DNA of 64,000 nt, taken from UHGV virus genome UHGV-1356548. One strand, 5' to 3'. This DNA comes from a virus. Of the stretch, positions 29,697 to 30,921 are shown piece after piece. Position 1 is the first letter of the stretch. Each line of letters starts with the position of its first letter. Below the pieces are notes generated by a model that saw nothing but the letters and a program-made list of their open reading frames with translations, searched no databases and was not told the origin of the DNA. The translations under genes and the position numbers were made by a program.

Positions 29697-29705
29697 AATA
29701 TTTTC

Positions 29706-29734
29706 TTGACAAACTTTGCTTAACAGTGTAATAT
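29706..29734 (+). promoter_or_regulatory. sigma70-like promoter of tRNA cluster
   Basis: TTGACA (29706-29711), 17-bp spacer, TAATAT (29729-29734), about 60 bp upstream of the first tRNA. Confidence 0.5.
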
Positions 29735-29792
29735 TGTAAACATGGTCTCCCACCTTTTCTGGCGGCTAAGGTGTAAAAGAAAGCCACCCAGT

Positions 29793-29867
29793 GCCCTGTT
29801 AGCTTAGTGGATAAAGCAGCGGCCTTCTAAGCCGTTGACACTGGTTCGAGTCCAGTACGGGGTGCCA
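29793..29867 (+). tRNA. tRNA-Arg (anticodon UCU)
   Basis: Cloverleaf by hand: acceptor GCCCTGT/ACGGGGT, D-arm GCTT...AAGC, anticodon loop CTTCTAA, T-loop TTCGAGT, encoded CCA. Confidence 0.75.
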
Positions 29868-29871
29868 AATT

Positions 29872-29958
29872 GGGGAGTTATCCCGTAGGGGTAGCGGTGT
29901 AGACTGTAAATCTATTGTCATTGCGACTCGGGTGGTTCGACTCCACCACTCCCCACCA
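29872..29958 (+). tRNA. tRNA-Tyr (anticodon GUA), class II
   Basis: Acceptor GGGGAGT/ACTCCCC, anticodon loop CTGTAAA, long variable arm resembling E. coli tRNA-Tyr, T-loop TTCGACT, encoded CCA. Confidence 0.8.
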
Positions 29959-30072
29959 AATTTATAGTTTTAAATGCATAAATCATACAGATAATGGCAT
30001 TGATATTTATCGTCGTTTATACTAGTCACTAACTGCTCGAAAATCAGTGTCATTATCAGTATTGTTTATAAA

Positions 30073-30163
30073 TGAGGGTAGGGAGCAATGGTGCTCAAGC
30101 GGTCTTGAAAACCGTCCCGTTGAGGATGACTTGATGATGGTTCGATTCCATTACCCTCAGCCA
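30073..30163 (+). tRNA. tRNA-Ser (anticodon UGA), class II
   Basis: Acceptor TGAGGGT/ACCCTCA, anticodon arm GCGGT-CTTGAAA-ACCGT, long variable arm, T-loop TTCGATT, encoded CCA; 5' boundary +/-1 nt. Confidence 0.7.
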
Positions 30164-30260
30164 TATTGTTGACCTTGTAATTAAGCGAAAGCCGGAAGCA
30201 GAACCGGATTATCAAATGTTACAGTCGTCATCGCCGACTAGCAACATGGTCAACATACTG

Positions 30261-30359
30261 AGCTAGGTAAGCCCTTTGGCAAGGGCGAGGATTTTTAATC
30301 CTGAAAATAGACGAGGTAGTCGTTGAATACATAGGTGGTTCGATTCCATCACCTAGCAC
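30261..30359 (+). tRNA. atypical tRNA-like gene, Lys-type anticodon loop (UUU), oversized variable region
   Basis: Perfect 7-bp acceptor GCTAGGT/ACCTAGC, D-arm GCCC-TTTGGCAA-GGGC, anticodon arm AGGA-TTTTTAA-TCCT, T-arm GGTGG-TTCGATT-CCATC, but 32 nt (with its own GACGA-GGTAG-TCGTT hairpin) between anticodon and T arms; 3' end is CCT not CCA. Confidence 0.4.
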
Positions 30360-30364
30360 CTTTT

Positions 30365-30440
30365 TGCTGATGTAGCACAATTGGTAGTGCAATTGATTTG
30401 TAATCAATAGGTTGCAGGTTCAAGTCCTGCCATCAGCACC
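30365..30440 (+). tRNA. tRNA-Thr (anticodon UGU)
   Basis: Acceptor GCTGATG/CATCAGC, anticodon arm ATTGA-TTTGTAA-TCAAT, T-loop TTCAAGT, encoded CCA. Confidence 0.85.
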
Positions 30441-30441
30441 A

Positions 30442-30516
30442 TGGCCCTGTAGCTGGAAGGTTCAAGCAAGCGACTCATAATCGCCAGACGGTGGTTCAAT
30501 TCCACCCAGGGCCACC
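30442..30516 (+). tRNA. tRNA-Met (anticodon CAU; elongator or Ile-lysidine type)
   Basis: Acceptor GGCCCTG/CAGGGCC with G1-C72 pair, anticodon arm GCGA-CTCATAA-TCGC, T-loop TTCAATT, encoded CCA. Confidence 0.8.
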
Positions 30517-30527
30517 AAATAATAAAT

Positions 30528-30604
30528 ACTCCGCGTAGCTCAGCTTGGTAGAGCGCCTGATTTGGGATCAGGAGGTCGAGTGTTCGAATCACTCCGTGGA
30601 GACC
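30528..30604 (+). tRNA. tRNA-Pro (anticodon UGG)
   Basis: Acceptor CTCCGCG/CGTGGAG with the C1-G72 pair typical of bacterial tRNA-Pro, D-arm GCTC...GAGC, anticodon arm CCTGA-TTTGGGA-TCAGG, T-loop TTCGAAT, encoded CCA. Confidence 0.85.
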
Positions 30605-30650
30605 ACTTTCAGTTATACTTTAAACATATACAAACAAAAGGAACCTTTAA

Positions 30651-30921
30651 AATGTATACACTTAAAATTGTAGAGCGTGTAAATCCAACCCATACCGTAG
30701 ATTTTCGTGACGATTTCAATCCTCTGGCTGTAAATCTTCGAGAGTCATATCATGAACTCAGCTGCGATGCAGTGGTGGTCTTTTTTGAAGACAACTCTGA
30801 AGGGGCGGTAGCTTGTGTTGTTGATAGTGAGCAGAAGTTTTATATTTACAGAGATGTAGATGCATACTTGATGAATGAAAATGCAGTTACTGTTAGAATC
30901 ATCCACCGAGTGCCTCGATAA
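30651..30921 (+). CDS. hypothetical protein
   Basis: Start trimmed to ATG 30651 (MYTLKIVERV) because the longer ORF overlaps tRNA-Pro. Confidence 0.4.

What the first reader, a model, noticed from the sequence alone, without database searches (positions are those of the whole stretch)
30261..30359. Atypical tRNA-Lys-like gene with a 32-nt insertion between anticodon and T arms
Acceptor, D and T arms are canonical and the anticodon loop UUUUUAA gives a UUU (Lys) anticodon. The region between the anticodon stem and T stem is 32 nt, far longer than any normal variable arm, contains its own 5-bp hairpin, and the 3' end is CCT rather than the CCA encoded by the neighbouring tRNAs. Host anticodon nucleases such as PrrC and PARIS target tRNA-Lys, and phage tRNA variants can escape them, so this may be a nuclease-resistant variant. 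It could equally be a decaying pseudo-tRNA.
Basis: partly seen in the sequence, partly recalled or inferred. Interest (0 to 1): 0.7.

Follow-up and report, generated by a model that had tools for sequence, protein, structure and literature searches.

The report
Conserved non-canonical phage tRNA-like RNA
This is a real, evolutionarily maintained tRNA-shaped RNA gene of rV5-like coliphages, one member of an apparently undescribed phage family with a shortened anticodon arm and a 31-40-nt extra domain, so it is neither an ordinary lysine tRNA nor a dead pseudogene.

Summary
A tRNA-like gene lies at 30262-30358 (+), followed by CCT, in the tRNA cluster of a Vequintavirus (rV5/FV3-like) genome. 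It has 31 nt, including a 5-bp hairpin, between the anticodon-like arm and the T arm.

It is not a decaying pseudogene. Homologues occur once per genome across Vequintavirinae (about 190 phage records) and in one unrelated N4-like podovirus. None was found in bacterial genomes. Across 25 distinct variants, 99.3% of predicted pairs hold and 13 of 22 pairs show compensatory changes. One of these is the tertiary G19:C56 to U19:A56 elbow pair.

It is not a standard tRNA-Lys either. The anticodon-like arm is only 15-16 nt in every member, and its loop differs by lineage:
- CAUCCA in most
- YAUCAAA in Erwinia phages
- UUUUA in rV5

Two single-stranded motifs around the extra hairpin, GAAAA and AAUACAUA, are invariant in Vequintavirinae (GUAAAA in the podovirus copy). 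Phages with the common type also carry canonical tRNA-Gly and tRNA-Lys.

The UUU triplet and the A73 discriminator are rV5-lineage innovations. They make the arm nearly identical to host tRNA-Lys.

My best reading is a tRNA mimic on an old scaffold, remodelled towards tRNA-Lys. Its function is untested. Nuclease escape remains possible but unproven.

The parts
30262..30268 (+). Acceptor stem, 5' strand (GCUAGGU)
   Evidence: Pairs with 30351-30357. Pairs 1, 3, 4, 5 and 6 show double (compensatory) changes across 25 variants, and 100% of cells are paired. Sequence verified.
30269..30270 (+). Linker A8 A9. A8 is invariant where canonical tRNAs have U8.
   Evidence: Alignments. Position 9 varies A/G.
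30271..30286 (+). D arm: GCCC-UUUGGCAA-GGGC (4 bp + 8-nt loop), or 6 bp + 4-nt loop UGGC
   Evidence: Three of four stem pairs covary. The second loop G covaries with the T-loop C (G19:C56 in 17 variants, U19:A56 in 8). RNAfold and RNAalifold extend the stem by the invariant U14-A21 and U15-A20.
30288..30302 (+). Anticodon-like arm AGGAU-UUUUA-AUCCU, 15 nt. Read as 5 bp + 5-nt loop, or as 4 bp + 7-nt loop UUUUUAA with a UUU triplet.
   Evidence: Stem pairs 27:42, 30:39 and 31:38 (alignment columns) covary. The loop differs by lineage. Positions 30-40 match E. coli tRNA-Lys at 10 of 11 bases.
30303..30309 (+). Conserved single-stranded 5' flank GAAAAUA. GAAAA is invariant in all Vequintavirinae variants; the podovirus UTK0002 copy reads GUAAAAC.
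   Evidence: Alignments. Unpaired in all MFE folds.
30310..30324 (+). Extra hairpin GACGA-GGUAG-UCGUU
   Evidence: A-U changes to G-C in Av-05. Other genera have a different, longer hairpin (3-9 bp) at the same position.
30325..30333 (+). Conserved single-stranded 3' flank GAAUACAUA (AAUACAUA invariant in all variants)
   Evidence: Invariant columns. Predicted unpaired in nearly all folds (exceptions in the isolated-segment folds).
30334..30350 (+). T arm GGUGG-UUCGAUU-CCAUC
   Evidence: U-A changes to C-G at 51:63, and G.U to G-C at 50:64. 100% of cells are paired. The T-loop C56 covaries with the D loop.
30351..30357 (+). Acceptor stem, 3' strand (ACCUAGC)
   Evidence: See the acceptor 5' strand entry.
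30358..30361 (+). Discriminator A73 followed by CCU instead of CCA, then UUUU and tRNA-Thr at 30366
   Evidence: Other genera have U73 + CCA. Vequintavirus variants have ACCU or ACAU; the Av-05 lineage has UACA or CACA.
29706..29734 (+). Candidate sigma-70-type promoter (TTGACA-17-TAATAT) upstream of the tRNA cluster 29793-30605
   Evidence: Consensus scan only, 10 of 12 matches. Weak evidence for co-transcription on the + strand.

Best explanation
**Shown (about 0.9 confidence).** The locus encodes a selectively maintained, L-shaped tRNA-like RNA. It belongs to a phage-specific family with one copy per genome, found in Vequintavirinae and in one N4-like podovirus. The family is defined by:
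- a 7-bp acceptor stem;
- a D arm and T arm with a covarying 19:56 elbow pair;
- a shortened 15-16-nt anticodon-like arm;
- an inserted domain made of a variable hairpin between two conserved single-stranded motifs, GAAAA (GUAAAA in the podovirus copy) and AAUACAUA.

**Inferred.**
- It is transcribed with the tRNA cluster and released by RNase P and 3' trimming. In rV5 it would be completed by the host CCA-adding enzyme.
- It acts as a tRNA mimic rather than a routine decoder. The family keeps acceptor, elbow and extra-domain features strictly, but lets anticodon-loop size (5-8 nt) and position 33 vary. Phages with the common type also carry canonical tRNA-Gly and tRNA-Lys.
- In the Vequintavirus lineage the arm was remodelled (UUU, A37A38, U39C40, plus A73) to imitate host tRNA-Lys. 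The copy in this window therefore most likely works as a tRNA-Lys look-alike in the conflict over tRNA-targeting defences. It could be a competitor or decoy for anticodon nucleases or LysRS-dependent steps, or at best a poor back-up acceptor.

The role of the conserved extra domain is unknown. A binding site for a protein or another RNA is my guess.
For: **Family and distribution**
- About 189-190 phage records match; 129 carry the rV5 type.
- No match in 185,579 bacterial species genomes for the signature motif, and none in 5,426 E. coli genomes.
- Model R1 separates members (89-123 bits) from ordinary tRNAs (28 bits or less).
- A member sits in the Schitoviridae phage UTK0002 at 99.8 bits.

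**Structure**
- 99.3% of cells are paired and 13 of 22 pairs have double changes. Slid-partner controls give 31-45% paired.
- The 19:56 pair covaries (GC in 17 variants, UA in 8).
- Every variant tested whole (window plus six homologues) folds by MFE to the same five arms; the extra hairpin was checked in isolation for all 25 variants.

**Selection within the rV5/Av-05 lineage**
- All changes at paired sites preserve pairing.

**Not a routine decoder**
- Arm lengths and loops CAUCCA, CAGCCA, CCUCCA, CUUCCA, YAUCAAA, UUUUA and UUAUA.
- ARAGORN does not call the type A copies, and those phages carry canonical tRNA-Gly(UCC); the Mydovirus loci also carry canonical tRNA-Lys(UUU).

**Lys mimicry**
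- Comparison with host tRNA-Lys.
- AriB site data from PMC12409363.
- The element sits 4 nt upstream of tRNA-Thr(UGU), the other prime AriB target.
- An Rnl1-like RNA ligase and phosphoesterases are encoded nearby.
Against: - No expression, processing, aminoacylation or cleavage data exist for any member.
- The triplets in the loop (UCC/GCC, UCA, UUU, UAU) mostly have U at position 34, as real phage tRNAs do.
- In type A the invariant loop bases are C35, C36 and A37 with U73, G1:C72 and C2:G71. This resembles the GlyRS identity set and could mean genuine charging or decoding.
- tRNAscan-SE users annotate the rV5 copy as tRNA-Lys and the Erwinia phage copies as tRNA-sup(tca).
- In rV5 the weak U31-A39 pair could open to give a normal 7-nt loop with U33.
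- The loss of encoded CCA, the shortened hairpin, and natural deletions in V18 and O157 typing phage 4 are compatible with relaxed selection in this lineage.
Confidence: 0.45

Rival explanations
1. It is a working, nuclease-resistant tRNA-Lys. The U31-A39 pair opens and the 7-nt loop UUUUUAA presents UUU. LysRS charges it through U34-U36 and A73. The unusual body and C41 make it a poor substrate for PrrC- or AriB-type nucleases, so it sustains AAA decoding when host tRNA-Lys is cut.
For: - UUU and A73 co-occur only in Vequintavirus. This genus carries 6-7 tRNAs, and no canonical tRNA-Lys is found in the 64-kb window.
- The arm matches host tRNA-Lys at 10 of 11 positions between 30 and 40.
- C41 corresponds to the AriB-inhibiting 'Mut2' change (PMC12409363).
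- T5 tRNA-Lys is a precedent (PMC11464382).
- It lies next to tRNA-Thr(UGU).
- It scores above the Rfam tRNA threshold.
Against: - The stem plus loop is one layer shorter than canonical (15 vs 17 nt), and the fifth pair is supported by covariation.
- There is a 31-nt insertion with conserved single strands of unknown fit on the ribosome.
- A8 replaces U8.
- CCA is not encoded.
- The scaffold's relatives have A33 or 6-nt loops and coexist with canonical tRNAs.
- U39, whose change fully blocks AriB, is retained.
Confidence: 0.25
2. It is an aminoacylated carrier for a non-ribosomal reaction. The family would be charged (Gly in the common type, Lys in rV5) but kept off the ribosome by its odd anticodon arm and extra domain. 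It would donate the amino acid to a phage or host transferase, as the non-proteinogenic tRNA-Gly of staphylococci does.
For: - CCA is encoded and U73, G1:C72 and C2:G71 are kept in four genera.
- In type A loops only positions 33 and 34 vary, while C32, C35, C36 and A37 are invariant. This fits synthetase recognition without decoding constraints.
- These phages also carry a canonical tRNA-Gly.
Against: - No candidate aminoacyl-tRNA transferase was identified, and I did not search the genome for one.
- Position 3:70 is not G:C.
- The loop pattern rests on only three substitutions.
- rV5 lacks CCA.
- The Erwinia phage type (UCA) fits no obvious identity set.
Confidence: 0.12
3. It is a structural punctuation or processing element. 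A tRNA-shaped module would be kept only so that RNase P and 3' exonucleases can cut the polycistronic tRNA precursor. In rV5, its acceptor/T helix plus the U run would also act as a weak terminator.
For: - It is packed 2-6 nt from neighbouring tRNAs in all genera.
- A terminator-like pattern lies at 30332-30365.
- T4 shows that tRNA-like RNAs sit in such clusters (rnaC, rnaD).
Against: - This does not explain the (near-)invariant GAAAA and AAUACAUA single strands, the conserved anticodon-like arm sequence within types, the encoded CCA, or transfer to an unrelated podovirus.
- Ordinary tRNAs already provide processing sites.
Confidence: 0.1
4. It is a decaying pseudo-tRNA with no function.
For: - No encoded CCA, a non-canonical arm, and inconsistent database annotation (tRNA-OTHER, tRNA-Pseudo, or none).
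- It is deleted in V18 and in O157 typing phage 4.
Against: - Conserved across five genera and one other phage family, with 13 covarying pairs including a tertiary pair.
- Structure-preserving substitutions within the rV5 lineage.
- MFE z-scores of -2.8 to -5.0 in all lineages tested.
Confidence: 0.04

Closest known systems
Phage T5 tRNA-Lys(UUU), which neutralises the PARIS (AriA/AriB) defence
   Same: Both are phage-encoded, carry a UUU triplet, and differ from host tRNA-Lys in the 3' strand of the anticodon stem. Position 41 is C in both (PMC12409363). Both lie in a tRNA cluster that also encodes tRNA-Thr(UGU).
   Different: T5 tRNA-Lys is, as far as I know, an ordinary-sized tRNA that is shown to function. 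The rV5 element has a 15-nt arm, a 31-nt extra domain, A8 and no encoded CCA, and it keeps U39. Its relatives are not Lys-type at all. No functional data exist for it.
Class II tRNAs, tRNA-Sec and allo-tRNAs (long variable arm; PMC7609411)
   Same: All have a long extra arm between the anticodon and T arms. A 6-bp D stem with a 4-nt loop is possible, as in tRNA-Sec. The Erwinia phage members carry the loop CAUCAAA, close to E. coli tRNA-Sec CUUCAAA (from memory). Anticodon identity varies on one scaffold, as in allo-tRNAs.
   Different: - The acceptor/T helices are 7/5, not 8/5, 8/4 or 9/3.
- The discriminator is U or A, not G.
- The extra hairpin is flanked by 7 and 9 conserved unpaired nucleotides instead of 0-2.
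- The anticodon arm is shortened.
- Rfam tRNA-Sec scores are 23-38 bits, below the gathering score of 47.
Phage T4 stable RNAs species 1 and 2 (rnaC, rnaD)
   Same: These are unexplained small RNAs encoded inside a phage tRNA cluster. rnaC ends in a tRNA-like T arm (CCGGGUUCGAAUCCCGG). They are dispensable in the laboratory (from memory).
   Different: There is no sequence similarity: model R1 finds nothing at rnaC or rnaD (L028). They are 119 and 139 nt and lack a full cloverleaf.
Non-proteinogenic tRNA-Gly of Staphylococcus and other tRNA mimics (tmRNA tRNA-like domain, YrlA Y-RNA-like)
   Same: The concept is the same: a tRNA-shaped RNA keeps the acceptor and elbow for recognition by tRNA enzymes while being diverted from normal decoding.
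   Different: No homology. The YrlA and tmRNA models do not match. The staphylococcal tRNAs keep a canonical anticodon arm.

Membership tests
Canonical elongator tRNA (Rfam RF00005) | Scores at or above the curated gathering threshold of the tRNA covariance model | tested here: met
   35.5 bits against 29, with the 26 inserted nucleotides treated as an insertion. Homologues in other genera fall below the thresholds.
Canonical elongator tRNA (Rfam RF00005) | 7-bp acceptor stem, D and T arms, and the G19:C56 elbow pair | tested here: met
   All helices are 100% paired across 25 variants. The 19:56 pair covaries GC/UA.
Canonical elongator tRNA (Rfam RF00005) | 5-bp anticodon stem closing a 7-nt loop with U33 and a purine at 37 (17-nt arm) | tested here: not met
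   The arm is 15 nt (5 bp + 5 nt, or 4 bp + 7 nt) in the window and 15-16 nt in all relatives. Position 33 is A, C or U in relatives.
Canonical elongator tRNA (Rfam RF00005) | 3'-terminal CCA, which is gene-encoded in enterobacterial and neighbouring phage tRNAs | tested here: not met
   CCT at 30359-61, while all six neighbours encode CCA. Post-transcriptional addition cannot be tested here.
tRNA-Lys(UUU) | LysRS identity nucleotides U34, U35, U36 and A73 (textbook E. coli identity set) | tested here: inconclusive
   The nucleotides are present if the 7-nt loop reading is used. Charging itself cannot be tested.
tRNA-Lys(UUU) | Class I body with a 4-5-nt variable loop, and homology to other tRNA-Lys genes | tested here: not met
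   The inter-arm region is 31 nt. There is no blastn match to any E. coli sequence. The nearest relatives carry UAU, UCC, GCC or UCA.
Class II tRNA (Leu/Ser/Tyr) | Long variable arm with at most a few unpaired flanking nucleotides, and a Leu, Ser or Tyr anticodon | tested here: not met
   The flanks are 7 and 9 nt and are conserved. No member has a Leu, Ser or Tyr anticodon.
tRNA-Sec (Rfam RF01852) | 13-bp acceptor/T helix (8/5), UCA anticodon, G73, and a score at or above 47 bits | tested here: not met
   The helices are 7/5 and the discriminator is A73 or U73. UCA occurs only in type B relatives. The best score is 37.6 bits. A 6-bp D stem with a 4-nt loop is possible but rests on invariant pairs.
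tRNA pseudogene | Helix-disrupting substitutions and no evidence of structural constraint | tested here: not met
   99.3% of cells are paired and 13 pairs covary. Seven of seven changes at paired sites within the rV5/Av-05 lineage preserve pairing.
Phage nuclease-escape tRNAs (T5 tRNA-Lys type) | Resists cleavage by the defence nuclease and rescues phage growth | not testable with these tools
   Only sequence is available: U36AAUCC41 compared with host U36AAUCA41 and T5 U36AAACC41 (PMC12409363).

The most novel reading that the evidence does not exclude
Vequintavirinae, and by horizontal transfer at least one N4-like phage, carry a dedicated tRNA-mimic scaffold. Its anticodon-like arm is re-tuned in each lineage to imitate a different host tRNA (Gly-like, Sec/opal-like, Lys-like, Ile-like). 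Its conserved extra domain recruits a partner. Together they would form a programmable RNA decoy or surrogate against tRNA-targeting immune nucleases, or alternatively a non-ribosomal aminoacyl carrier. This would be a new class of phage counter-defence RNA.
Probability: 0.2. Interest if true: 0.85.

Novelty: new variant of a known kind. Interest (0 to 1): 0.6.

Why it matters
Phage tRNAs have recently been recognised as weapons against tRNA-cleaving immunity such as PARIS, PrrC, retron-associated PtuAB and Schlafens.

This element adds several things:
- It shows that a widely used group of therapeutic and typing coliphages (rV5, FV3 and the BASEL Vequintavirus isolates), together with relatives on Salmonella, Klebsiella, Cronobacter, Proteus and Erwinia, maintain an extra tRNA-shaped RNA. 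It breaks several tRNA rules and is currently mis-annotated in contradictory ways, or not annotated at all.
- It offers a compact natural example of a five-arm tRNA fold with a conserved inserted domain.
- It is a test case for how far anticodon-arm geometry can deviate.
- It is a concrete candidate for deletion and complementation tests on defence-carrying hosts.

At minimum, annotation pipelines should stop calling it tRNA-Lys, tRNA-sup or pseudo without comment.

Tried and rejected
- **Known RNA family.** Rfam at permissive thresholds, on the window and on five homologous loci, gave only tRNA-clan hits. The YrlA, tmRNA and other hits were noise.
- **Host origin.** No blastn match in 5,426 E. 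coli genomes at E up to 10. No exact hit to the 20-base signature in 185,579 bacterial species genomes.
- **Literature.** The rV5 genome paper lists six tRNAs and does not mention this gene (PMC3606486). BASEL only ran tRNAscan-SE. Searches on Vequintavirinae with tRNA-like, PVP-SE1 and Hena1 found nothing on it. The PARIS papers do not test Vequintavirinae.
- **ARAGORN's fold** (anticodon 'atcc', stem AUUUU/AAAAU). It exists only in the rV5 sequence and is not conserved, so I rejected it.
- **Pseudoknot between the U-rich loop and GAAAA.** This is impossible with a 5-nt loop, and most homologues lack the complementarity.
- **K-turn or loop-E reading of the two flanks.** By eye, the GA dinucleotides are not opposed. 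No support.
- **Intron.** Bacterial tRNA introns are group I and lie in the anticodon loop. There is no bulge-helix-bulge motif and no known enzyme, so I rejected this.
- **The extra hairpin as the true anticodon arm.** Opened to 7 nt, the loops would read GUA in rV5 and CUA in Av-05, but position 33 would be G and other genera have unrelated loops. Rejected.
- **tRNA-Sec.** It fails on the 8/5 helix, on G73 and on score.
- **Small ORF.** The Mydo and KE22 records annotate CDSs over the element. G.U pairs and covariation point to RNA on the + strand, so I did not pursue this.

Full report
**Context**

The window is a Vequintavirus genome. The 1-kb stretch 29700-30700 is 100% identical to Escherichia phages ime and I29 and 99% or more identical to FV3, with the rV5-derived ev isolates at 99.3-99.9%. 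A tRNA cluster lies on the + strand at 29793-30605. In order it holds Arg-UCU, Tyr-GUA, Ser-UGA, the odd gene, Thr-UGU, a CAU tRNA and Pro-UGG. A sigma-70-like promoter pattern lies just upstream at 29706-29734.

**Observation**

- ARAGORN reports 'tRNA-???' at 30262-30360.
- Rfam's tRNA model scores 35.5 bits against a gathering score of 29, and treats 26 nt as an insertion.
- The MFE fold has five arms, at -34.2 kcal/mol and z = -4.5.
- I verified every segment by coordinate. In order: acceptor 7 bp; A8 A9; D arm GCCC-UUUGGCAA-GGGC; G; AGGAU-UUUUA-AUCCU; GAAAAUA; GACGA-GGUAG-UCGUU; GAAUACAUA; GGUGG-UUCGAUU-CCAUC; acceptor 3' strand; A73; CCU.
- All six neighbouring tRNAs encode CCA.

The description is therefore correct apart from small details. 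The start is 30262, and the inter-arm region is 31 nt.

**It is a family, not an accident**

GenBank records annotate this gene as tRNA-OTHER, tRNA-???(atcc), tRNA-Lys, tRNA-Pseudo or tRNA-TERM, or leave it unannotated.

Distant blastn searches found it in 129 records of the rV5 type. Walking out from a Salmonella phage copy raised this to about 190 records covering Vequintavirus, Avunavirus, Seunavirus, Mydovirus and Henunavirus. Metagenome and IMG/VR scans with the signature AATACATAGGNGGTTNGATTCC added further variants on contigs that, where complete, are 120-150 kb.

The same signature is absent from 185,579 bacterial species genomes. The element has no blastn match in 5,426 E. coli genomes.

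A covariance model built from 15 variants scores members at 89-123 bits and ordinary tRNAs at 28 bits or less. It finds exactly one copy per genome. One member, at 99.8 bits, sits in the tRNA cluster of Salmonella phage UTK0002, an N4-like podovirus of the Schitoviridae. This indicates horizontal transfer between unrelated phage families.

**Structure is under selection**

On a MAFFT alignment of 15 variants, 96.4% of cells pair and 12 pairs have double changes. On 25 distinct variants aligned to the model:
- 99.3% of cells pair;
- 13 of 22 pairs have compensatory changes;
- the covariation score is 0.51, against 0.19 for shuffles (0 of 500 reach it);
- sliding the partner by 1-3 columns drops pairing to 31-45%.

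The single tertiary pair I tested covaries perfectly. The D-loop G and T-loop C (G19:C56) occur in 17 variants, and U:A in 8. The RNA therefore forms a tRNA elbow.

The window copy and six homologues from other genera, folded whole, independently give the same five-arm MFE shape; one search folded only the inserted segment, for all 25 variants.

Within the rV5/Av-05 lineage, the seven substitutions at paired positions all preserve pairing:
- A4-U69 to G-C (two substitutions);
- the hairpin A-U to G-C (two substitutions);
- U7-A66 to U.G;
- G50.U64 to G-C;
- G1-C72 to G.U.

This excludes a freely decaying pseudogene.

**What is unusual**

1. **The anticodon-like arm is 15-16 nt in every member, not 17.**
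   - Type A is AGGUC-CAUCCA-GACCU, with loop variants CAGCCA, CCUCCA and CUUCCA. It occurs in Salmonella, Klebsiella, Cronobacter and Proteus phages and in some E. coli phages.
   - Type B is GGGC-[C/U]AUCAAA-GCCC. It occurs in Erwinia phages, in some metagenome contigs and in the podovirus.
   - Type C is AGGAU-UUUUA-AUCCU in rV5 and -UUAUA- in Av-05.
   - The pair that closes the loop covaries (C-G or U-A).
   - Position 33 is A, C or U. Real decoders keep U33.
2. **The insertion is a variable hairpin between conserved single strands.** The hairpin is 3-9 bp, its sequence is unrelated between groups, and it covaries within groups. The flanking strands are GAAAA(N2-4) (GUAAAAC in the podovirus UTK0002) and AAUACAUA, which are among the most conserved parts of the molecule.
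3. **A8 is invariant.** U14-A21 and U15-A20 could extend the D stem to 6 bp with a 4-nt loop. These pairs never vary, so this remains unproven.
4. **Most members have discriminator U73 and an encoded CCA.** Only type C lacks CCA, and only Vequintavirus has A73.

**Decoder or mimic?**

Type A phages carry 23-24 tRNAs, including a canonical tRNA-Gly(UCC); the two Mydovirus loci also hold Lys(UUU) and Lys(CUU). ARAGORN does not call their copy of this element at all. The family member is therefore not needed for ordinary decoding in those phages.

In type A loops only positions 33 and 34 vary. C32, C35, C36 and A37 are fixed. Together with U73, G1:C72 and C2:G71 this resembles the GlyRS identity set (textbook knowledge). 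It hints at selection for recognition rather than for the U-turn needed in decoding. This rests on three substitutions only.

I therefore favour a tRNA mimic, meaning a charged or uncharged RNA that is not a routine elongator. The evidence does not exclude specialised decoding.

**The copy in this window**

Relative to its outgroups, the Vequintavirus lineage acquired a U-only loop and A73. UUU plus A73 is the E. coli LysRS identity set (textbook knowledge).

Read with a 4-bp stem, positions 30-40 are GAUUUUUAAUC. Host tRNA-Lys has GACUUUUAAUC. I verified the host sequence, which is 100% identical in all 5,426 E. coli genomes.

The AriB nuclease of PARIS cuts host tRNA-Lys and tRNA-Thr(UGU) at U36AAUC|A41. 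The A41C change strongly inhibits cleavage and U39A abolishes it (PMC12409363). The element reads U36AAUCC41.

It lies 4 nt upstream of the phage tRNA-Thr(UGU). An Rnl1-like RNA ligase and two phosphoesterases are encoded a few kb upstream in the identical phage ime.

However:
- the arm is still one layer short;
- CCA must be added after transcription;
- the extra hairpin is the shortest in the family;
- V18 and O157 typing phage 4 have lost the gene through deletions.

I rate a Lys look-alike acting as mimic or decoy at about 0.45, a true resistant Lys decoder at about 0.25, a non-ribosomal aminoacyl carrier at about 0.12, pure processing punctuation at about 0.1, and a pseudogene at about 0.04.

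**Comparison with known systems**

It works most like the T5 tRNA-Lys counter-defence or like tRNA mimics. It fails the membership tests for canonical tRNA-Lys (arm geometry, class I body, homology), for class II tRNAs, and for tRNA-Sec (7/5 helices, discriminator, score below threshold).

T4 species 1 and 2 RNAs are conceptual neighbours, being unexplained RNAs in a phage tRNA cluster, but they are not homologous.

No Rfam family and no paper I could find describes it. I classify it as a new variant of a known kind: non-canonical tRNA or tRNA-like RNA.

**Limits**

All functional statements are inference from sequence. I did not scan public collections with the covariance model. Covariation in the extra arm was judged per subgroup by eye and by per-sequence folding, not by a formal test.

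Noticed in passing
window 29959-30072: The spacer between tRNA-Tyr and tRNA-Ser folds into a long imperfect hairpin with about 15 consecutive pairs (MFE -26.4 kcal/mol, z = -4.2, 0 of 200 shuffles as stable). It is unannotated in related records.
   Followed up: partly
window 30164-30261: The 98-nt spacer between tRNA-Ser and the odd gene is closed by the stem UGUUGACC/GGUCAACA. It contains two internal hairpins, including AGUCG-UCAUCGC-CGACU (MFE -25.8 kcal/mol, z = -2.6). It could be another small structured RNA. It has no Rfam match.
   Followed up: partly
L003 about 1105-1290 (Av-05) and L002 about 1612-1790 (Salmonella phage KE22): The spacer after the odd gene looks like a second non-canonical tRNA-like gene. 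It has acceptor AGUGUAU/AUACACU and D-stem halves split by about 110 nt. It also has an anticodon-like arm (CCAAC-UGUGGAA-GUUGG) and a mini T arm, GGUU-GAGU-AACC in Av-05 and GGUG-GAGU-CACC in KE22. The U-A to G-C difference in the mini T arm is compensatory. This was seen by eye only.
   Followed up: no
L004 (phage V18) 977-1043; L005 (O157 typing phage 4) 1001-1032: Natural deletions. In V18 the 5' half of tRNA-Tyr is fused inside the extra hairpin to the 3' half of the odd gene, which removes Tyr, Ser and the odd gene. Typing phage 4 keeps only the last 32 nt. The gene is therefore dispensable for growth on laboratory hosts.
   Followed up: partly
L048 1397-1482 (Salmonella phage UTK0002): Five nt upstream of the podovirus copy lies an unannotated 86-nt tRNA that ARAGORN calls Ser(UGA). 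Its ends (GGAAGAUU...AAUCUUCC-G-CCA) and T arm resemble E. coli selC as I remember it. That would give an 8-bp acceptor on a Ser-anticodon tRNA.
   Followed up: no
L027 5383-5457 and L041 3313-3387 (Mydovirus contigs); L036 7862-7934: In Mydovirus, the tRNA between Thr and the odd gene has a 6-nt anticodon loop (ARAGORN 'tRNA-??? (ga)'). GenBank labels it Ser, Ile or Arg in different phages. A 151-kb metagenome phage that carries a type B element also has a CUA (amber-suppressor-like) tRNA at the contig end.
   Followed up: no
L029 1147-3155 (phage ime, equivalent to a few kb upstream of the window's tRNA cluster): An Rnl1-like 'RNA ligase 1 and tail attachment protein', two phosphoesterases and two Sir2-like proteins lie next to the tRNA cluster. 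This could be a tRNA-repair and NAD-related counter-defence neighbourhood.
   Followed up: no
GenBank MG0656xx records: Eighteen records named 'Campylobacter phage' (about 135-143 kb) are 99-100% identical to rV5-like coliphages over this region. They are probably coliphage genomes carrying a wrong host label.
   Followed up: no
window 29793-30605 compared with T4 (L028): Several hundred T4-like (Tequatrovirus) records match parts of this cluster at 80-90% identity. Some rV5 tRNA genes are therefore shared with, or exchanged between, T-even phages.
   Followed up: no
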